This document shows, piece after piece, positions 3,001 through 44,415 of a DNA stretch of 64,000 nucleotides. Numbering within the stretch: the first letter of the stretch is position 1; every line of letters starts with the position of its first letter. The notes below the pieces were generated by a model, which was not told the origin of the DNA, searched no databases, and was given only the letters and a program-made list of their open reading frames with translations. The stretch is from a virus, in the IMG/VR virus record IMGVR_UViG_3300037485_001404, positions 11,235 through 75,234 of that record, one strand, 5' to 3'. Both the position numbers and the translations under genes were made by a program.

Positions 3001-3916
3001 TCATTTCTTTGTCATCATCGAGAACGTCAATCTCTTTCTTTCTATCCCCTGCGAAATCTATTCCTTCTGGTACCGGAACATAGTCATAGGTTCCTCTTGC
3101 CCATCCCACCAAAGCAAGGGGTGCATTGGCAACTATATGATCCATCAACTGAGCGCCGGATTTGATAAGAGTACCTAGGTGCTCTGTATCTGGGAATAGT
3201 GGATCCCCCCGTTTGAAGTGAGCTTTATTCTCAGCGACATTCATTATTCTCTGTCTGAGCTGAAGACCTTTAGATTCACTATCAGGAATACCTGCCGCTT
3301 TCTCTGCATCCACGATTTGTCTGGTCAAAGCATCGGCAAGGATTTCATCCTTGTTTGCTTGGATCATATTAGTCTTAATCAATTGCTGCAGGTCTACTTC
3401 ACCTTTTGGACCTATCTGTAAATCTTGGATGTCCACAGTTTGCGGTGGAGGGAGATCTTCTTCATCCTCGTCTTTATCTATCGCTTTCCCTGAACTCACA
3501 AGGTCCTTAGCAATACCCCAAGCCCCTACCGCAGCTTTTCCTATCCCCCTGAATGCTGGACCCAGTACATGCTTTTCTATACCTCCTTCATCTGGGTTAA
3601 TAAGCCAATCAGGAGATACGAAGGGTAGCTCAGCTCTGCGTTCACTTTCTGCTTGCATAATAGCTTGCTGGTGAGGTCTTAGAATATGTTTACCCGGTTC
3701 AGGCTTTCCACCTTCTACCTTTTGCATAGCTTGTGCAATTTCATTGACCGGAGCTGCTTCTGTTTCAACTGCTGCCGGTGTGGGAGTAGCAACAGGCTTC
3801 TTTGGTTTAATTGCTTCGGGAGTAGCTTCTACTCCCATAGCTTTAGAGATCTCGTCTTGAATGGTTTCCTCTCCCGATTGAGAGGCTGTTTCATCTTGGT
3901 TCAGTTCTTCTTCCAC
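1..3916 (-). CDS. Very large (>1300 aa) putative internal virion/ejection protein, partial (runs off left edge)
   Basis: Not in the ORF track because it has no stop in the window. GTG at 3916 follows GAGAGG and reads (M)EEELNQDETASQSGEETIQDEISKAMG...; the same frame is open at positions 2-190. Last gene of the virion operon. Confidence 0.75.
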   Translation of the reverse strand, partial: MEEELNQDETASQSGEETIQDEISKAMGVEATPEAIKPKKPVATPTPAAVETEAAPVNEIAQAMQKVEGGKPEPGKHILRPHQQAIMQAESERRAELPFVSPDWLINPDEGGIEKHVLGPAFRGIGKAAVGAWGIAKDLVSSGKAIDKDEDEEDLPPPQTVDIQDLQIGPKGEVDLQQLIKTNMIQANKDEILADALTRQIVDAEKAAGIPDSESKGLQLRQRIMNVAENKAHFKRGDPLFPDTEHLGTLIKSGAQLMDHIVANAPLALVGWARGTYDYVPVPEGIDFAGDRKKEIDVLDDDKEMNFNGTTVIVEPGESIESVNKKVWEKFQDQVTDTFIYATRNGFYDDLSMMSMASKLGKYASPTTVLAEQVLKAEAIVNMSKSSGKIAAAIRAMRNHPRAMAALTQATEGAFLREYPQDGMGVLDTALPAILQGAGGALHGYDFTPKSQKQARLIAQDLYSRGTAERTLSGEMEIPLIKGVPQKLIKDELVNVTRANRLKERIETKLDTSPDMLQTALDIGVDDPEIKKMIDVHLLEVAGQTPESYRNANAINFAYQNRVSKIESAYEGRTAEPGYKASMRDIQEAKREMYRRASDTKELLDYVKENHESIHTPMEEFIGRVGVNDVRRKVMVDMFNNFLNSETDDVSRQLNKRKNAGILEGVSSMELNIPAGIKTVEKLGRRAEDIKQSYRMADKGLKAILKNSGGNDEIIRTAVEINATLRDAFRTQSNFTKEQVTKKLTKLYEMKGTSEGFRGAVRRTKRVVEVWNKKQRLMDIDREKMILSSMEDSITQSQYAVKQRRLSSQSSYRPSNLVNYIFKNGNDQPDIHSNIIEHHRDLLTDKSFPAENEGKMLVNLEKISNHMTMGRAIPENLTAEYKELTDTVTGANLRKQKSDIESLIEESAMGDRPQDIKAFEDQLRMVKEELKNTAKGYTSSTTLFHKALKQYNRERSWVLDIEKSVKNVVEYGDSDSFFTALAKASHAINEFNIERFRTSAIRAMRDLSPLWNDFTENMPFSHERKYEMFMELTGGLAYKLRKIENPAEYRNVMEAHISNIKAALTHLPEGMLEGLSEMHQQIFGKEMDKEMLLAQFLVPTNAFDAWKDLQRGYLNLTRLQVSAEAKLKELNRSAYEGWWTATMGEHEMAVRTGYASVQGLATFAEDNRKGDRAIYKIWSQRVSSRHRAILNWGEDVTLALKKIDGMAGFSGFYDGHRGYEGGHYLTSKGKVIQQMFMVENENTQGIYTNNNKRGFIARHTELRRQYDADHISKLPPKERAKYYQRIVDEANKDFDYLKEFSEKDE

Positions 3917-3941
3917 TGGTAGTACCTCTCAACGGGAATAG

Positions 3942-5348
3942 TCAATTGGGTGCCTGACGGGTAGGTGTTGCGCCTTCGACTTGAGGAGTTCCCACTTCAG
4001 ATTCAAGTGCAGGCCATCCAAATCCAGCTCCCATGTACTGATTGATTCTAGCCCTGTGTTGATTTACTGCGGTTTCATTTCCTGCGGGGTAATTGCCTCG
4101 AAGGTCACTGAAGATCCTTGTCAACGCAGCTTTCATTCCAGCTTTTCGTTGAAGATCCGTGACTGGTTTACCTGCTGATGCCTTATTGACTTCGGCTTCA
4201 GCAAATGCCCATACAGATTCTGGAGATAGGTTTGGGATACCTCTGGTACGTGCTTTCAACTCTTGAAGGGACAAAGCTCCTTCAGGGGCCTGTGCCTTAG
4301 CTAGCAATGCCATATTGTCTGAAATGGCTTTGCGTTGCTCAGGCGCTTGTGGCTGTCTGAACTGTACCTTCGGTACAGCAGCATTGGCATTCCTCGGGCT
4401 TGGTGCAATAGGAGGAATAATGTACGTGGCACCTTGAGTTGTGCCTTGCTTATCCCCGGTAACAGTCTGACGGAGAATCCCAGTATCCATAAGAGTCTTG
4501 AGAATCCTTTGGACTTGTTCCTCAGTATTACCAGCTTCTCTGAGAGATTTCTCAAGCATTGCCGTTTTATTTGCAATGCCTTGTTCTGTTGATTTCCCTT
4601 CTCCCTCTAATCTCTTACCGAGAACGGTCTTGGATTCATCCGCTCCTTGCTGAGCATTGTAAGCATCGGTAGGTTGGAATTTAGATCCGACATCAAGATG
4701 GGTCATTCCTCCAACGGTACCGGCTGTCATCTTGCCGAGATTCTGGATAATGAGATCCCACATCTCACGTTTTCTATTCACGTCTGCTTCATTGCGATAA
4801 TCCTGAATAGCTGAGTGCATATTAGCTCGTTGGCTAGCAATATCACCGCCGATTGAGTTCTGTGTCCCGGAGATAGCGGATTGTGCCCAACGTCCTTGAG
4901 CATCAGTAGGTGAAGGTAGTCCAGGTGCAGGTGGGGTAATTAGCCTGCCAGCTTCTGTGGCCGCTGCCTGTGCTGCAGGTGCCATTTCTTTTTCAGTAAT
5001 AGTGGTAGATTTAGAGTCTGAAGATCCAGCCTTACCAGTGCCTCCAGGAACCACACCTTTTCCAGGTACTCCAGGGGTATTCTCTTTCGCCTTTGCAGCG
5101 AGACCTGAAGCAGGTGCCGCACCTGTAGCAGCAGGAACAGCTCTGGTCTTAGAAGCAGGTGCCGTAGTAGTCTTGCTCACAGACGGAGTAGCAGCAGGTA
5201 TTGACCTAGCTTTTGAGGGAGCCGGAGTAGGAGCTGTTGCAGGCTCTCCGCTAGGAGGAAATTCTTGCCAAACCCAAGAGCCATCAGGTTGCTTGACTTT
5301 GTATCCCCATTTCTGCGTGGTAGGGTCTTTAGCTTTAGTCCATGCCAT
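3942..5348 (-). CDS. Putative internal virion protein (Ala/Pro/Thr-rich N-terminus)
   Basis: 468-aa ORF with GGAGA RBS, inside the virion operon. Confidence 0.65.
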   Translation of the reverse strand: MAWTKAKDPTTQKWGYKVKQPDGSWVWQEFPPSGEPATAPTPAPSKARSIPAATPSVSKTTTAPASKTRAVPAATGAAPASGLAAKAKENTPGVPGKGVVPGGTGKAGSSDSKSTTITEKEMAPAAQAAATEAGRLITPPAPGLPSPTDAQGRWAQSAISGTQNSIGGDIASQRANMHSAIQDYRNEADVNRKREMWDLIIQNLGKMTAGTVGGMTHLDVGSKFQPTDAYNAQQGADESKTVLGKRLEGEGKSTEQGIANKTAMLEKSLREAGNTEEQVQRILKTLMDTGILRQTVTGDKQGTTQGATYIIPPIAPSPRNANAAVPKVQFRQPQAPEQRKAISDNMALLAKAQAPEGALSLQELKARTRGIPNLSPESVWAFAEAEVNKASAGKPVTDLQRKAGMKAALTRIFSDLRGNYPAGNETAVNQHRARINQYMGAGFGWPALESEVGTPQVEGATPTRQAPN

Positions 5349-38780: not shown

Positions 38781-39415
38781 ACCATACCTTAGGTAAATAC
38801 ATTTTTGACAGAATAAATAAACTGTTTATCCTAGATATCGTTGTCAAGAATGGAAAAACCTATTTTCAATGCTCCTGCGATTGCGGTATCCTCTGCGAAA
38901 AAGATGTCTATAAAGTCCTGTCGGGTCACACTAAATCTTGTGGCTGTAATCTGGTCAATAGGGACTACCAAAAAAGACATGGGGGGCACAAATCTTCAGA
39001 ATACGGCACCTGGGAAGCAATGAAAGCCAGATGCAACAATCCTAAAAATAAGAAATACAGGCTGTATGGAGGAAGAGGAATAAAGGTTTGCGATAGGTGG
39101 AATGATTTTGTAAATTTCTACGAGGATATGGGCCTCCGCCCGGAAGGGTTAACTCTGGAGAGGATAGACAGTGACGGAAATTACTGCCCTGATAACTGTA
39201 AATGGGCTACTTATTCAGAGCAGAATAGAAATACAACTCAAAATCACTACCTAACTCTTGGAGAAACTACTTTAACTATCGTTGGGTGGGCCGAGAGATT
39301 GGGATGGGATCCCGCAGTAATCCACGCTAGATTAAAATATGGCTGGTCCATAGAGGATACTTTAACAATACCGAAAAGGAATAGGAGTCCCAATGGTACA
39401 AGAGAAGCCTTCTGA
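38777..39415 (+). CDS. HNH-type homing endonuclease-like protein
   Basis: CSCDCG, SCGC, WEAMKARC, YGGRGIKVCDRW, TLERIDSDGNYCPDNCKWAT; same family as 6198-6905. Confidence 0.9.
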   Translation: MNHTLGKYIFDRINKLFILDIVVKNGKTYFQCSCDCGILCEKDVYKVLSGHTKSCGCNLVNRDYQKRHGGHKSSEYGTWEAMKARCNNPKNKKYRLYGGRGIKVCDRWNDFVNFYEDMGLRPEGLTLERIDSDGNYCPDNCKWATYSEQNRNTTQNHYLTLGETTLTIVGWAERLGWDPAVIHARLKYGWSIEDTLTIPKRNRSPNGTREAF

Positions 39416-40610
39416 TAAGTTTTTGAAATTTGTATCCGCAGTTAAGGCCGAATCAATTGAGTTTCCTGAACTGAAACCGTATCTGGTAGCCCAAGCCATT
39501 CTTGAATGTGGCAGGGGTATTACAGAGTTGTTCGACCAATACAATAACCCTTTCGGAATGCACTACCATGATTTCCTGGCACCTTACGGTATCGGCGTTC
39601 AATATGTGGCCTGCGACGGACCTGGGCTTTATACCAAGTTTGATAATTATTCATCCGCTATTAAGGGTTTCTACAAGTGGTTCGATGCCTGGGCACACTA
39701 TGGCGACTGGAGAACCGAGGCACGCAAAGGCGGGCTTGCTTTTCTGAAGCACATCGGACCTTTCTACTGCCCTCCCGGATTCACTGAATCCTGGAAAACT
39801 GCACATGGAGGTCTTGACTATGCGGACTATATCGTTAACAACCTGCTGGTAGAAGCTAAGGTTTTGTTGAATGATGCGACAGCAACCCCCGATAAACCCA
39901 CCCCAAAACCAGTACCGAAGGATTTTACCTATCTTTCTGCAGATACTGCTGAAGCAAAGAACTTGGTCAATGCTTTGGTGTCTAATTTTCCAAAAGAGTT
40001 TAGCTTTAAGCTGTATAAACCACCTACGGATACTCCAGTAGAGCCACCAAAACCCCCAAACCCGCCAACAACTGCCGGGAAAAAGATACTTCTGAACCCA
40101 GGACACAGTGCTTCTTCCCCTGGCGCGGATGGACTGTCATCTAGCGTCCATGAAGAGGTGCAAAATCTCCTTGCCGCAAATATTATGGCCTCAGATCTCA
40201 GAGCTGCAGGGCATACTGTAGATATCTTTAGGTCAGAGAGCAATGATCTTCAAGCTGTGGGAGACAAAGCTAAGGGGTATGATGCTGCATACTCTCTCCA
40301 TCACAATGCTTTTGACAAGAAAGAGCATTACGTCTGGATATTCGGCCCGAGTGGAGAAGCTAACCAAGCATCTAAAGATCTTGGAGCCAAGATTACTGCA
40401 GCAATTGGAAAAGCTCTTAATCTTGCAGATAATGGGATGGAAAAGTCGGGATATACTGTCCCCAATCTGTTCGCGAAGAATTGCAAAGGCCCATCTGGTC
40501 TTATTGAATTCTATTTCATTGATGCATATGGGGATCTTAATGTTGTTAATGATAGAACAACTAAAGCGGCACATGCAATGGCTGGAGCAATGATTAAATA
40601 CTTCGGGTGA
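39393..40610 (+). CDS. Endolysin: N-terminal GH73/glucosaminidase-like domain plus C-terminal Amidase_3 domain
   Basis: VAQAILECGRG...NNPFGM; ILLNPGH...E...SLHHNA...LIEFYFID; Pro/Lys/Thr linker. Confidence 0.85.
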   Translation: MVQEKPSDKFLKFVSAVKAESIEFPELKPYLVAQAILECGRGITELFDQYNNPFGMHYHDFLAPYGIGVQYVACDGPGLYTKFDNYSSAIKGFYKWFDAWAHYGDWRTEARKGGLAFLKHIGPFYCPPGFTESWKTAHGGLDYADYIVNNLLVEAKVLLNDATATPDKPTPKPVPKDFTYLSADTAEAKNLVNALVSNFPKEFSFKLYKPPTDTPVEPPKPPNPPTTAGKKILLNPGHSASSPGADGLSSSVHEEVQNLLAANIMASDLRAAGHTVDIFRSESNDLQAVGDKAKGYDAAYSLHHNAFDKKEHYVWIFGPSGEANQASKDLGAKITAAIGKALNLADNGMEKSGYTVPNLFAKNCKGPSGLIEFYFIDAYGDLNVVNDRTTKAAHAMAGAMIKYFG

Positions 40611-40773: not shown

Positions 40774-41817
40774 ATGATAAGATTGGGGGTATTGTCTCCT
40801 TCGCCAATAGATACCACGGGTTTGTTTAGGGTAGGTTGGCCTCTAGCTCTATTACGTAGGCAAACCCCTAATTTTGTATATACGTACATCAATGAAGTAT
40901 CCTGGCTATCGGCATCTCAAATTGATGCTTGTATGTTTCAAAGACCGTTTACTCCTGAGCATGTGACAATCCTTAATAGGTTCAAAGAAGAAAGTGTTCC
41001 GACCTGGATTGAGTATGATGATCTTCTTACCGCAATACCGAAGCACAATCCTTCTTTCGATACTTACGGTAAGCCAGACATACTGGAAGCATTGAAAATA
41101 ATACCTGCTCTGGTAGATATTATTACAGTTACTACCCCTTACCTCAAAGAATGCCTACAATCCCCTTCAGTGAAAGATGTTAGAGTTGTCCCCAATGCTT
41201 GGGATGACTATCATCTTCCGATGGAACAAGAGAAGCACGCGGTCAACAAATCTCTCCGTATCGTATGGAGAGGAAGTCCAACACATATTTCCGATCTTGA
41301 TCTATATGCCGATCCGGTTATTAGACTGCACAAAGAGGATCCAAGCATTCACTGGTTCTTCCTTGGGTTTAGACCTTGGTTTACTAGACAAATGGAACAA
41401 ACACACTGCCATGTCTTCGAGAAACCTCTAGATATGGTAGAATACATTAGATTTTTAGGGACTATCAGACCAGATATTCTCGTAGTACCTTTGACAGATG
41501 ATCCGTTTAATAGGGCTAAGAGCAATATTGCTTGGATGGAAGCATCCTTTGCAGATGCTGTGACTGTTGCTCCTGATTTCCCTGAATGGAATAGACCTGG
41601 GATTATAAACTACAAGGATTCTATTCTAGATACGCTATCGGATACGATAGTGAACATTGATTCGTTGAAGCACAATACAAAACTATCCTGGGATTTCATC
41701 CAAGAAAATCTTCTTCTCTCCAAGGTTAATTATTTGAGATGGGAAGTGCTGGAAGAAATAATAAGTAAGAAGAAGCCTATTACGACTTCTTTCTTACCTC
41801 TAGGATCGAGACCCTAA
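40774..41817 (+). CDS. GT-B (GT4-like) glycosyltransferase
   Basis: FQRP, IEYDDLL, VTTPYL, VVPNA, WRGSPTH, PLTDDPFNRAKSNIAWME. Confidence 0.85.
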   Translation: MIRLGVLSPSPIDTTGLFRVGWPLALLRRQTPNFVYTYINEVSWLSASQIDACMFQRPFTPEHVTILNRFKEESVPTWIEYDDLLTAIPKHNPSFDTYGKPDILEALKIIPALVDIITVTTPYLKECLQSPSVKDVRVVPNAWDDYHLPMEQEKHAVNKSLRIVWRGSPTHISDLDLYADPVIRLHKEDPSIHWFFLGFRPWFTRQMEQTHCHVFEKPLDMVEYIRFLGTIRPDILVVPLTDDPFNRAKSNIAWMEASFADAVTVAPDFPEWNRPGIINYKDSILDTLSDTIVNIDSLKHNTKLSWDFIQENLLLSKVNYLRWEVLEEIISKKKPITTSFLPLGSRP

Positions 41818-41824
41818 CGCTAAG

Positions 41825-43175
41825 GAACCATACGGTACTATACCAGAACCTCACCACATCTCAATACGCACTACCTCTATTCCACTTTATCGCACAATGC
41901 CGTCATGATAACATACAACGCATTACCCTCTCGACACTATAGCATACTTCACCTATTCTTCAAAGTATATGATACCACCCTACCTACATAAAACCTCGCT
42001 CGACTTCTACGCCACGGGACGGCATCTTACCACTACCGTACCGAACAGCACTCCACTTTACCCTCACTCCATGGAACAACACCTAACCAAAGCCCGACCG
42101 CATCTCACATCGCTTTATCCGGATAGCAAGTTAAGAGACTATACCTCCATGCCACGAGGCTCGGCTCGACCACAACCTTACATGACGAAACAATGCTATA
42201 CCCCAACTGTACGGTCCCGTATAAGATTTCACCTTCTGCAGTACCGATACCAAACCACAACACCAAACTACATAACTATGCCGTCACCTTTCCCACCTTA
42301 TCGGATCTCACCTTTACTTCACGCGAAGAAACTTTACCCCCTACATTAAGGCATCCTAGCTTAATCTACCTCGACCACAACTAAGTCCACTTGACCATCG
42401 CCTTACGTCATAATATCCTATCTTGCAGGAACGCAATCCCAGTATACAATGATTCAACACGACCATCGCCTTATCAAACACTGGTTCATCTTACCATCAC
42501 ACCAATGTACGTGGCTCTACCCCCATCTAATCTTATTGCACCCCACCTCTGCTGGAAAGCACATAGCGCAGCTTTACCTACACCGCAAGACACGTAACGC
42601 AGCATTGCCGCTACCTTGACGAATCGAACAGAACAATACCGCTACTTTATTGCCAGATTACTTGACCTCAACCCACCTTTAATAGGCGGTACGTGGCATA
42701 ACTTTAACGGCACTGGACCAAACCTGGACCAAAGACGAATTTACTCCTAACACATACTACGCGGCTTTACCTTTACCTGCATTAACCTACTACACCTTCG
42801 ATTGAAGTTAGTTTACCCCACCTACAACCTCACATCGCTTTATCAAACCAATACTACACTTGACTTTACCTAGACGAAAAATTCATATTATATCACCGAA
42901 ACTGCAACCTATTTCACTTTACCGTGGCATTGCGCCAATCCAGTCTACCACAACAACATACCGCAAAATCCTACCATCACCGAACTGTACCGAAGACAAC
43001 CATACCCTTACAGAATCCAGCGAAACCAGGCCCGCACTGAAGACAACGAAACCAAACCCTCACTAAACTGCACCGTGACAGAAGGTGGCTTAACTCTAAC
43101 TTTACATCGATGGCTTTAGTGCCACCCTTCGATTGAAGTTAGTTTACCCATCCTACAACCTCACATCGCCTTTCT
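41825..43175 (-). ncRNA. Putative guide-RNA array with 5-nt periodic (G/N)GY-NN motifs
   Basis: No minus-strand ORF of 60 aa or more. Plus strand parses as RC(C)NN pentamers, e.g. accat acggt actat accag; gcccg accgc atctc acatc gcttt; acatg acgaa acaat gctat. CYTTAY recurs about every 55-90 nt. Directly downstream of a Cas7-like gene. Confidence 0.75.
42795..43169. repeat. 44-bp direct repeat pair (42795-42838 and 43126-43169, 42/44 identical)
   Basis: CCTTCGATTGAAGTTAGTTTACCC(CA/AT)CCTACAACCTCACATCGC. Confidence 0.9.
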
Positions 43176-43243
43176 TATAACAGTCAATCTCCCACAGACT
43201 GTTCCCACCAAAATCATCCGGATTCTCCAGTCATTTCAAGCAC

Positions 43244-44092
43244 TTAGAGCCATCCGGGTGGTAAATCTTCTTCGTATCCCGGCAATTCTTCCAACTGATA
43301 AAGAAATGCGCCTTTGTTTCCACTGCCTCTCCATGATCCTAATCCCTGATTCTTACCAAGGTCTAGCAATACCTTCAACGCTTCAAATGTAAATGGTGAT
43401 CCCTTTCTAACTCTAAGCACTGTTCCCATTTCCGTATCCACAGGTAAGACTTCTGAAACAGCGATAGCAGTCTTTCGCTTGCCCATAACATCAAAGTGAA
43501 TAGCTCGCTCACAATAAGCGGGATTGCCCTCACTGTCACGAGCAATATCGCGGTCAGGGCGCATAAATTCATCAACAGCTTTAAGGTCCAGAGCACCACA
43601 ACCACCAGCAGCCACTTTAGTCTTGACAATGGATCTATCCTCCGTAGAAAGCATCACTTCGAGATTAGCCTTGATGTTACCAAGGATCATATGAGTAGAC
43701 ACCATAGGCCAACCCTTTTCATCTCTCATGAAAACTGTTGCCTGCTTTTGAGTTCCTTCTTTTACTGCTTCATCAAACTCTTTCTCAACGTCTACGATCA
43801 ACTCCAGCAATTCAGGGATAGTCTCAGGCAAAGCTTCATTCCTTCCAAGTCTTGCTTGAAAGGATCTGACTATCCCCTGTAGTTCCATTATTTCTTTCTC
43901 CACAGCCAATGCACTACCGGAATACTTTGCCAGTGCCTTGGTGACCTTGGCACCGAGCTTGTTGGCTTTCTCCAATTCTTTCTTGGTCTTAGAGAGGACG
44001 TGCTCATTGTAGATCGATGCTTTAGGGCAAGTGCCCAACATGTCTCGGATAAGCTTGAGGCGAAGGCGATAGTACAGAAAATTCCCAGTCAT
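43244..44092 (-). CDS. Stand-alone Cas7/RAMP-superfamily-like protein
   Basis: N-terminal strand YRLRLKLIRDMLGTCP, P-x-V...ILGNIKA helix, ER...SEVLP segment, C-terminal Gly-rich loop GKNQGLGSWRGSGNKGAF; AAGGAG RBS. Confidence 0.8.
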   Translation of the reverse strand: MTGNFLYYRLRLKLIRDMLGTCPKASIYNEHVLSKTKKELEKANKLGAKVTKALAKYSGSALAVEKEIMELQGIVRSFQARLGRNEALPETIPELLELIVDVEKEFDEAVKEGTQKQATVFMRDEKGWPMVSTHMILGNIKANLEVMLSTEDRSIVKTKVAAGGCGALDLKAVDEFMRPDRDIARDSEGNPAYCERAIHFDVMGKRKTAIAVSEVLPVDTEMGTVLRVRKGSPFTFEALKVLLDLGKNQGLGSWRGSGNKGAFLYQLEELPGYEEDLPPGWL

Positions 44093-44132
44093 AATTGCTC
44101 CTTATGCGTTAAGTGACTTCAGAACCGTTTTT

Positions 44133-44160
44133 ACCCTATCACACCCACCGAGGATGTCAA
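44133..44160 (-). promoter_or_regulatory. Sigma70-type promoter for the Cas7-like gene and array
   Basis: Minus strand TTGACA-16 nt-TAGGGT with TG extended -10. Confidence 0.6.
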
Positions 44161-44415
44161 CAGGCAAAGCTTGGACAGCCAAAATCCCGACCACACTTTG
44201 GACACCGCAACCCCTTGATATCATTAGACCGATCCAGGGAGATCTACTATATTGAATGACAAAAAAGACCCCTTTATCCAATAGTCCTAGCACCAAGGCT
44301 GAAATCGATTTGGACCCTATACTGATGCGATCTGCTCGAAAAGATTCAACCTTGAGCCTCTGAACGCGACAAATTTCAGGGCTTATCTGATTGACCGGCC
44401 AGTCAAGCCACCCTC

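What the first reader, a model, noticed from the sequence alone, without database searches (positions are those of the whole stretch)
41881..43175. Array is segmented into roughly 55-90-nt units by a conserved RTAARG motif, with recurring sub-families
On the plus strand CYTTAY-type motifs recur at about 41885, 42056, 42113, 42176, 42296, 42332, 42401, 42469, 42572, 42645, 42702, 42765, 42838, 42917, 43006 and 43100, with many spacings of 57-73 nt. CATCGCYTT occurs five times (42108, 42396, 42464, 42833, 43164), GACCATCGCCTTA twice (42393, 42461) and TCCACTTTAYC twice (41881, 42052). Between motifs the pentamer register slips by one base every few pentamers. Inference: roughly 15-20 separate guides, each with a conserved handle or processing site.
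Basis: partly seen in the sequence, partly recalled or inferred. Interest (0 to 1): 0.8.

Follow-up and report, generated by a model that had tools for sequence, protein, structure and literature searches.

The report
Phage VIPR guide array, misread punctuation
The RTAARG motif is real, but it is mostly a side effect of the five-base code of a phage VIPR guide-RNA array (a CRISPR-related DNA silencer first described in 2026), whose true punctuation is a one-base register slip about every 26-31 bases.

Summary
Observation confirmed. CYTTAY occurs 18 times, against about 4 expected from composition.

Interpretation only partly supported.
- **What the stretch is.** Window 41818-43243 is the minus-strand guide array of a VIPR system. 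It lies directly downstream of a Cas7-like Vipr gene (43244-44092, minus strand) in a 75-kb uncultured sediment phage.
- **How it is built.** The RNA strand consists of NGYNN units, 213 pentamers and 58 hexamers. A hexamer is usually followed by GGT, which gives blocks of 5n+1 nt (26, 31 or 21 nt). That makes about 47-58 short guides, not 15-20 guides of 55-90 nt.
- **What RTAARG is.** It always sits in phase: anchor T, then an A-rich variable triplet, then the next anchor G. A null model that keeps the periodicity still leaves a 2-3-fold excess.
- **Where the excess comes from.** The first unit of a block prefers GGYAA. Across 28 related arrays this is 28% against 12-16% elsewhere (related test p about 2e-10).
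- **Spacing.** Motif spacing is only weakly regular.

This matches the "staggered vrRNA arrays" of the 2026 VIPR preprints. This scan has already found such arrays on other DNA many times. It is a new member of a known kind. No RNA data and no targets could be obtained.

The parts
43244..44092 (-). vipr gene: 282-aa Cas7-like RAMP protein with a roughly 90-residue helical insertion
   Evidence: ORF. AlphaFold2 model has mean pLDDT 80. Best solved-structure matches are Csm3, type VII Cas7, Cmr4 and Cas7-11 (Foldseek E 1.8e-5; VIA Z 12.2, rmsd 3.7, 152 aligned). Profile-profile match to the SUSP1 Vipr family has Prob 90% and E 1.7e-7 in global mode, 82% and 1.1e-5 in local mode. No Pfam family matched.
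43149..43243 (-). Leader between the vipr stop and the first regular block; weakly periodic, with a small hairpin and U-run at 43230-43218
   Evidence: Parse; hairpin.
41818..43243 (-). vrRNA array: 273 NGYNN units (213 pentamers, 58 hexamers, 2 tetramers) in blocks of 5n+1 nt, each block starting with GGT
   Evidence: Plus-strand G content is 12.8%. The 5.2-nt period stays phase-coherent over hundreds of nt. GGT pair distances peak at 26, 31, 52 and 57. There is no ORF over 126 aa and no 3-nt periodicity.
41770..41791 (-). Terminator-like hairpin plus U-rich tail at the 3' end of the array, inside the 3' end of the convergent + strand ORF 40774-41817
42795..42841 (-). 47-nt segment duplicated at 43126-43172 with 94% identity; it spans more than one block
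   Evidence: family D2.
43126..43172 (-). Second copy of the 47-nt duplicate
42108..42116 (-). One of five copies of AARGCGATG (CATCGCYTT on the + strand); the others are at 42396, 42464, 42833 and 43164
   Evidence: Expected count is 0.04 under the periodic null.
42917..42923 (-). Example of GGTAAAG at a block start; other block-start cases begin (minus-strand first base) at 42870, 42578, 42338 and 42062, and GGTAAGA at 42495 and 42031

Best explanation
The stretch is the guide-RNA (vrRNA) array of a phage VIPR system of the 'staggered' kind.

**Shown here.**
- A Cas7-like Vipr gene is followed on the same strand by 1.4 kb of NGYNN units. G at position 2 and a pyrimidine at position 3 are conserved; positions 1, 4 and 5 vary.
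- About every fifth or sixth unit carries one extra base, and the next unit begins with GGT. The array therefore falls into roughly 47-58 blocks of 21, 26 or 31 nt.
- RTAARG is anchor T plus an A-rich variable triplet plus the next anchor G.
- Its excess over a periodicity-preserving null comes mainly from a preference for GGYAA in the first unit of a block.

**Inferred.**
- The minus strand is transcribed from the vipr promoter and ends at the hairpin at 41791-41770.
- One Vipr protomer binds each G-Y anchor, as in the solved SUSP1 filament.
- The one-base slip breaks the filament register, so each block acts as, or is trimmed to, a separate short guide.
- The two variable bases of each unit pair with DNA, one target base being skipped per unit. 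Binding silences genes of rival mobile elements.
For: **Identity of the protein.** It has a RAMP fold. It is homologous to the characterised SUSP1 Vipr: the family HMM picks the Vipr ORF as the best of all SUSP1 six-frame ORFs (E 0.0026), and hhalign gives Prob 90% and E 1.7e-7 over 188 columns. The glycine-rich loop GLGSWRG aligns to SUSP1 GVGDWRP.

**A fit between protein and code.** In SUSP1, H17 and D177 read the first G of GGY (10.64898/2026.04.26.720927). Here they align to T21 and S253, while the W-R pair that holds the second G and the pyrimidine is kept. This fits a code that has lost G1. It rests on a low-confidence alignment and is an inference.

**Periodicity and blocks.**

**Conservation in relatives.** Arrays with a period of 5.12-5.26 nt lie downstream of, and co-oriented with, the homologous gene in over 30 related loci. 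Block lengths are 26/31 nt, or 36/41 nt in other clades. Between near-identical arrays, G2 changes at 2 of 270 sites against 4-5% at other positions.

**Indels.** Near-identical arrays differ by indels of 151, 192, about 295 and 656 nt; three of the four junctions lie at GGT block starts and the fourth at a TAAGG|G microhomology. One indel is a single 5-nt unit.

**RTAARG.** It is in phase. TAAAG is the top or near-top enriched pentamer in the homologous arrays L003, L006 and L014. Pooled over 28 arrays, 28% of first units carry AA against 12-16% elsewhere. Taking GGT-start first units alone: 24% against 13%, odds ratio 2.1, p = 2e-10. Of 152 in-phase TAAAG, 56 lie in first units, which are only 15% of all units.

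**Literature.** VIPR, its relaxed YNNNG and NNNNG repeats, and staggered arrays are described in 10.64898/2026.04.26.720920.
Against: - No RNA data exist for this phage, so transcription, strand and processing at the slips are all inferred.
- No natural target was found, so the decoding rule and the independence of the blocks are untested here.
- The preprint's staggered-array figure could not be seen; only its legend was read. The equation with 5n+1 blocks is therefore probable, not certain.
- The preprint says staggered arrays were not among the architectures confirmed by small-RNA sequencing.
- Guides of 4-6 units carry only 8-12 informative bases. That is short compared with the 9-16 repeats of characterised vrRNAs.
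- Duplications and indels span several blocks, which would also fit larger functional units.
- The 53-73-nt clustering of RTAARG spacings is not explained by the block model alone.
Confidence: 0.72

Rival explanations
1. One reading: 15-20 guides of 55-90 nt, each bounded by RTAARG acting as a conserved handle or processing site.
For: The motif is enriched even against the periodic null. Its spacing is slightly more regular than chance. TAAAG is enriched in several homologous arrays. One indel junction between sister arrays lies in TAAGG.
Against: The motif has no fixed place in the blocks. TAAAG spacing is random, with a coefficient of variation of 0.90. Fewer than half of the spacings fall in 55-90 nt. 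Many homologous arrays show no excess (L001, L002, L004, L020, L035, L039). No conserved sequence flanks the motif. There is no structured tail: fold z = -0.72 and no Rfam match.
Confidence: 0.1
2. The array, or long multi-block pieces of it, works as one continuous guide or scaffold. The extra base every 4-6 units (in this window) only adjusts the filament to the geometry of the target DNA.
For: The phase is coherent over hundreds of nt. Duplications and indels of 47-656 nt span blocks. The structural preprint notes natural vrRNAs of up to 30 repeats and says filament length follows RNA length.
Against: Block length varies (21, 26 or 31 nt here; 36 or 41 in other clades), so there is no fixed geometric period. 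GGT plus an A bias marks each block start like a start signal. Searches with 12-unit windows across slips, allowing 0-2 extra target bases at the slip, found nothing above shuffled controls, but the database was small.
Confidence: 0.13
3. RTAARG carries no function at all. It is purely a statistical product of T at position 3, A-rich variable positions and G at position 2.
For: TAA alone shows no excess (38 against 37.4). The variable triplet AAA is only 14 against 8.2 in the window and 1.45-fold pooled, similar to TTT.
Against: The first-unit bias is strong when pooled (p = 2e-10). TAAAG is 16 against 4.9 in the window.
Confidence: 0.3
4. The stretch is not an RNA feature. It is protein-coding sequence or a DNA-level element such as curved DNA or a replication origin.
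For: 5.2 nt is half a helical turn of DNA. A 126-aa ORF lies on the + strand at 41969-42349.
Against: There is no 3-nt periodicity. The strand asymmetry is strong and always co-oriented with the vipr homologue in relatives. The anchors match the published VIPR repeat code.
Confidence: 0.02

Closest known systems
VIPR systems with 'staggered' vrRNA arrays and relaxed YNNNG/NNNNG repeats (bioRxiv 10.64898/2026.04.26.720920, text and legend of fig. S18)
   Same: A phage-encoded lone RAMP (Vipr). A co-oriented pentamer-repeat array with conserved G/Y anchors and variable bases. Guides abut without tails, each offset by one base from the last.
   Different: The array is long (about 273 units). The guides are short (4-6 units). 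No conserved accessory (vap) gene was found. The first G of GGY is conserved only at block starts. The A bias of the first unit is not mentioned in the text I could read.
Type II VIPR of Escherichia phage SUSP1 (experimentally characterised)
   Same: Homologous Vipr protein (hhalign Prob 90%). Repeat units with a G and a pyrimidine anchor. Phage context.
   Different: SUSP1 has strict GGYNN units with an exact 5-nt period, 10-12 units per vrRNA, each followed by an invariant structured tail of about 40 nt, and its own flanking elements. Here there is no tail, the period is 5.2 nt, and the protein has an added helical insertion (282 against 195 aa).
CRISPR arrays with Class 1 Cas7 backbones
   Same: RAMP fold of the protein. 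The idea of a multi-guide array with one protomer per short RNA segment.
   Different: There are no repeat-spacer units, no cas operon and no Cas6-type hairpin repeats. The guide code is non-contiguous.

Membership tests
VIPR system | Vipr protein with a RAMP (RRM) core, glycine-rich loop and thumb | tested here: met
   AlphaFold2 model with pLDDT 80. Cas7-family chains fill the top of both fold searches (Z 12.2). The loop G250-x-G252-S-W254-R255-x-S-G258 is invariant or nearly so in 24 homologues.
VIPR system | Homology to an experimentally characterised Vipr | tested here: met
   hhalign of 148 family members against 120 SUSP1-family members: Prob 90.3%, E 1.7e-7 in global mode; 81.9%, E 1.1e-5 in local mode. 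The HMM's top hit in SUSP1 is the Vipr ORF. A single-sequence comparison was not significant.
VIPR system | Adjacent tandem pentamer repeats with conserved anchors alternating with variable bases | tested here: met
   NGYNN with G2 at 0.65 and T3 at 0.80. G2 is nearly invariant between sister arrays.
VIPR system | Non-CRISPR, minimal locus in a virus | tested here: met
   75-kb single contig with terminase, portal and DNA polymerase genes. No CRISPR-type repeats in the region. Neighbouring ORFs have no Cas family match.
VIPR system | Accessory vap gene next to vipr | tested here: inconclusive
   None of the window's neighbouring ORFs is conserved beside vipr in 59 related loci. The preprint says loci 'typically', not always, carry a vap gene.
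VIPR system | vrRNAs are expressed, bind Vipr and direct DNA binding by the 1-nt skip rule | not testable with these tools
   No RNA run holds this DNA. Local target searches showed no excess over shuffled guides.
VIPR staggered array | Successive vrRNAs abut, each offset by one base, with no tail or ribozyme between them | tested here: met
   Blocks of 5n+1 nt. No Rfam or hammerhead match. No recurring invariant tail. No excess RNA structure. Only the figure legend was available, not the figure.
Type II (SUSP1-like) VIPR array | Invariant structured 3' tail of about 40 nt after each repeat tract | tested here: not met
CRISPR array | Identical direct repeats of 24-48 nt separated by unique spacers | tested here: not met

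The most novel reading that the evidence does not exclude
GGYAA at the first unit is a true start signal of each staggered guide, serving as a Vipr nucleation or trimming mark. That would give tail-less VIPR arrays a minimal 5' handle. The recurrence of RTAARG every 53-73 nt would then mark functional two-guide modules.
Probability: 0.18. Interest if true: 0.5.

Novelty: new member of a known kind. Interest (0 to 1): 0.3.

Why it matters
The stretch adds a large, clean example of a tail-less 'staggered' VIPR array, about 50 guides in 1.4 kb, from an uncultured sediment phage.

It shows three things that can be tested at the bench:
- The punctuation is a one-base slip before GGT.
- The first unit of a guide is A-biased.
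- The loss of the first G of the repeat code goes together with replacement of the two residues that read that G in the solved SUSP1 complex.

How tail-less arrays are cut into guides is not settled in the preprints, so these sequence rules give concrete predictions. The RTAARG finding itself is mostly explained by this known system.

Tried and rejected
- **Phage database.** blastn and tblastn of the locus against GenBank phages found no match.
- **Solved structures.** A Vipr profile search against Protein Data Bank sequences found nothing significant.
- **RNA evidence.** No RNA holder is listed. The only holders are two sediment DNA runs, one of them probably the source.
- **Codon-mirror idea.** I tested whether variable triplets avoid stop codons. 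Rejected: the depletion affects TA- and GT-containing triplets in general, and TGA is not depleted.
- **Target search, window guides.** 12-unit windows were run against the phage's own genome and 59 related loci with arrays masked, under rules NN, NNx, NNxx, NNN, NNNx and NNNxx, with 0-2 extra bases at the slips. Real guides scored no better than shuffled ones.
- **Target search, all arrays.** The same was done for 228 guides of 7-12 units from all arrays, with no excess.
- **Promoter reading of TAAAGT.** It could be read as a -10 element, but only four promoter-like sites lie on the minus strand of the array, none recurring with the motif.
- **Higher-order pattern.** The order of GGTAA-start blocks shows no alternation or other regular pattern.

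Full report
**1. The observation**

- Fifteen of the 16 listed sites are CYTTAY and one (42702) is CTTTAA. Three more CYTTAY sites exist (42312, 42771, 42864).
- CATCGCYTT occurs five times, GACCATCGCCTTA twice and TCCACTTTAYC twice, at the stated places.
- The motif is far commoner than composition predicts: CYTTAY 18 against 4.0 under a first-order model.
- CTTTA is the most over-represented pentamer of the stretch, 16 against 2.9.

**2. What the stretch is**

Window 41818-43243 has no ORF longer than 126 aa. It is G-poor on the + strand (12.8%).

It has a sharp periodicity of 5.2 nt, not 5.0 and not 3. Autocorrelation peaks at lags 5, 21, 26 and 31, with nothing at 25 or 30. The phase holds over hundreds of bases.

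Directly upstream on the minus strand lies a 282-aa ORF (43244-44092) with no Pfam family.
- Its AlphaFold2 model (pLDDT 80) matches Cas7-family RAMP proteins above everything else: Csm3 Z 12.2, type VII Cas7 11.9, Cmr4 and Cas7-11.
The literature search found three 2026 preprints on Viral Interference Programmable Repeat systems.
- These describe a phage-encoded lone RAMP (Vipr) plus vrRNAs made of GGY/NN pentamers. Relaxed repeat forms (NNNGG, YNNNG, NNNNG) and several array architectures are reported, including 'staggered arrays' in which one vrRNA ends where the next begins, offset by 1 nt.

**3. Membership**

- The window protein has 24 close and about 194 more distant cluster representatives.
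- A family HMM picks the SUSP1 Vipr ORF as the best hit among all six-frame ORFs of phage SUSP1 (E 0.0026).
- A profile-profile comparison of 148 family members with 120 SUSP1-family members gives Prob 90%, E 1.7e-7 over 188 columns. It covers the whole SUSP1 protein. Residues of about 30-110 of the window protein form an extra helical insertion. In local mode the values are 82% and E 1.1e-5.
- The glycine-rich loop GLGSWRG aligns with SUSP1 GVGDWRP.
- In the solved SUSP1 complex, H17 and D177 read the first G of GGY, while W178 and R179 hold the second G and the pyrimidine. Here the aligned residues are T21 and S253, and W254 and R255 are kept. This fits the code found below, but it rests on a weak alignment and is an inference.
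- The genome is a 75,234-nt contig with terminase, portal and DNA polymerase genes, from a sediment metagenome.

**4. Anatomy of the array**

I parsed the minus strand with a dynamic-programming model that learns the unit profile.
- The units are N-G-T-N-N, with G2 at 0.65 and T3 at 0.80. There are 213 pentamers, 58 hexamers and 2 tetramers.
- After a hexamer the next unit starts with G in 46 of 58 cases and with GGT in 38. After a pentamer the first base is mixed.
- The array therefore consists of blocks of 5n+1 nt: 26 nt (21 blocks), 31 (13), 21 (8), and some short or irregular ones.
- A model-free check agrees: distances between GGT triplets pile up at 26, 31, 52 and 57.
- The array ends at a terminator-like hairpin on the minus strand (41791-41770).
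- There is no Rfam match, so no hammerhead ribozyme. No invariant tail recurs. The RNA folds no better than shuffled sequence (z = -0.72).
- By contrast, SUSP1 vrRNAs are strict GGTNN runs, each followed by a structured tail.

**5. Relatives**

Fifty-nine related loci were fetched.
- More than 30 of them carry a C-poor array directly downstream of the gene and co-oriented with it, with a period of 5.12-5.26 nt.
- Block lengths are 26/31 nt in some clades and 36/41 nt in others, always 5n+1 and starting with GGT or GGC.
- Between near-identical arrays, G2 changes at 2 of 270 sites. Positions 1, 3, 4 and 5 change at 4-5%.
- Sister arrays differ by indels of 151, 192, about 295 and 656 nt; three of the four junctions lie at GGT block starts and the fourth at a TAAGG|G microhomology. 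One indel is a single 5-nt unit.
- No neighbouring gene is conserved with vipr.

**6. What RTAARG is**

- In 19 of 21 cases TAARG lies at the same offset in a unit. It is the anchor T, the two variable bases AA, the next unit's first base (A or G), and the next anchor G.
- A null that keeps the parse and shuffles each column gives RTAARG 9.4 (observed 18), TAAAG 4.9 (observed 16) and TAA 37.4 (observed 38).
- So about half of the motif count is a by-product of the code, and a 2-3-fold excess remains.
- The variable triplet AAA is only mildly enriched: 14 against 8.2 here, and 1.45-fold pooled, similar to TTT.
- The remaining signal is positional. In 28 non-redundant arrays, AA fills the two variable positions in 28% of first units against 12-16% at other positions (window: 31% against about 10%).
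- For GGT-start first units alone, AA is 24% against 13% (odds ratio 2.1, p = 2e-10) and A at position 4 is 49% against 34%.
- Fifty-six of 152 in-phase TAAAG lie in first units, which are only 15% of all units.
- TAAAG excess is strong in some homologous arrays (L003, L014, L028, L045, L006) and absent in others (L001, L004, L020, L039).
- In the window, only about 8 of 58 blocks begin with GGTAARG. The other copies lie in the fifth or other units.

**7. Does RTAARG segment the array?**

Only weakly.
- The coefficient of variation of its spacing is 0.58 against 0.89 under the null (p = 0.02). For TAAAG alone it is 0.90.
- Forty-one percent of spacings fall in 55-90 nt.
- Seven spacings fall in 53-73 nt against 2.2 expected (p = 0.004). 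That window was chosen after seeing the data, and it equals about two blocks.
- The order of GGTAA-start blocks shows no pattern.
- The sub-families are real. A 47-nt segment is duplicated at 94% identity (42795-42841 and 43126-43172). AARGCGATG occurs five times with differing flanks. These read as duplicated or convergent guide content.

**8. Mechanism**

- **Shown:** the protein fold and homology, the unit code, the block structure and their conservation.
- **Inferred from the preprints:** transcription of the minus strand with vipr; one protomer per anchor; a break in filament register at each slip, so that each block is a separate short guide; pairing of the variable bases with DNA, one base skipped per unit; silencing of rival elements.
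- **Not obtainable here:** RNA ends, since no RNA run holds this DNA, and targets, since real guides matched no better than shuffled ones.

**9. Verdict**

The object is a new member of a known kind. This scan has already followed up many staggered VIPR arrays on other DNA.

Noticed in passing
window 42496-42510: A second sediment sample (run X2) holds 151-nt contigs of a close relative. One is identical to the array at 42511-42634. Over the next 15 nt (three units) it differs at most positions, then matches the window again at GGTAAGATGAAC. This suggests mosaic replacement of guide content inside a block.
   Followed up: partly
L003, L022, L023 (arrays downstream of the vipr homologue): Three 99.7-100% identical loci from different samples differ only by 192-nt and 151-nt insertions in the array. 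The junctions lie in short repeats at GGT block starts (GGGTA; GGTGATGGTA).
   Followed up: yes
L005:1650-2100 and 3600-4000: This related locus also has 5.2-nt periodic, C-poor stretches upstream of its vipr homologue, so some members carry arrays on both sides of the gene.
   Followed up: no
window 43244-44092 (residues T21, S253, W254, R255): The two residues that read the first G of GGY in the solved SUSP1 complex align to T and S here, while the W-R pair is kept. This parallels the loss of G1 conservation in the repeat. The alignment confidence is low.
   Followed up: partly
window 44102-44296 (- strand): A 64-aa ORF lies 10 nt upstream of vipr. It has no Pfam match and no counterpart in 59 related loci. 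It is probably not a gene and not a vap accessory.
   Followed up: partly
window 39393-40610 (+ strand): A 405-aa ORF carries N-acetylmuramoyl-L-alanine amidase and glucosaminidase domains. It is a likely endolysin, two genes before the array.
   Followed up: no
variable triplets of 28 arrays (window and loci): Triplets containing TA (TAG, TAC, TAA, ATA, CTA, GTA) are depleted to 0.5-0.7 of expectation. ATC, AAA and TTT are enriched 1.45-1.6-fold. This composition rule of the guide code is unexplained; part of it may come from ambiguity in the parse.
   Followed up: partly
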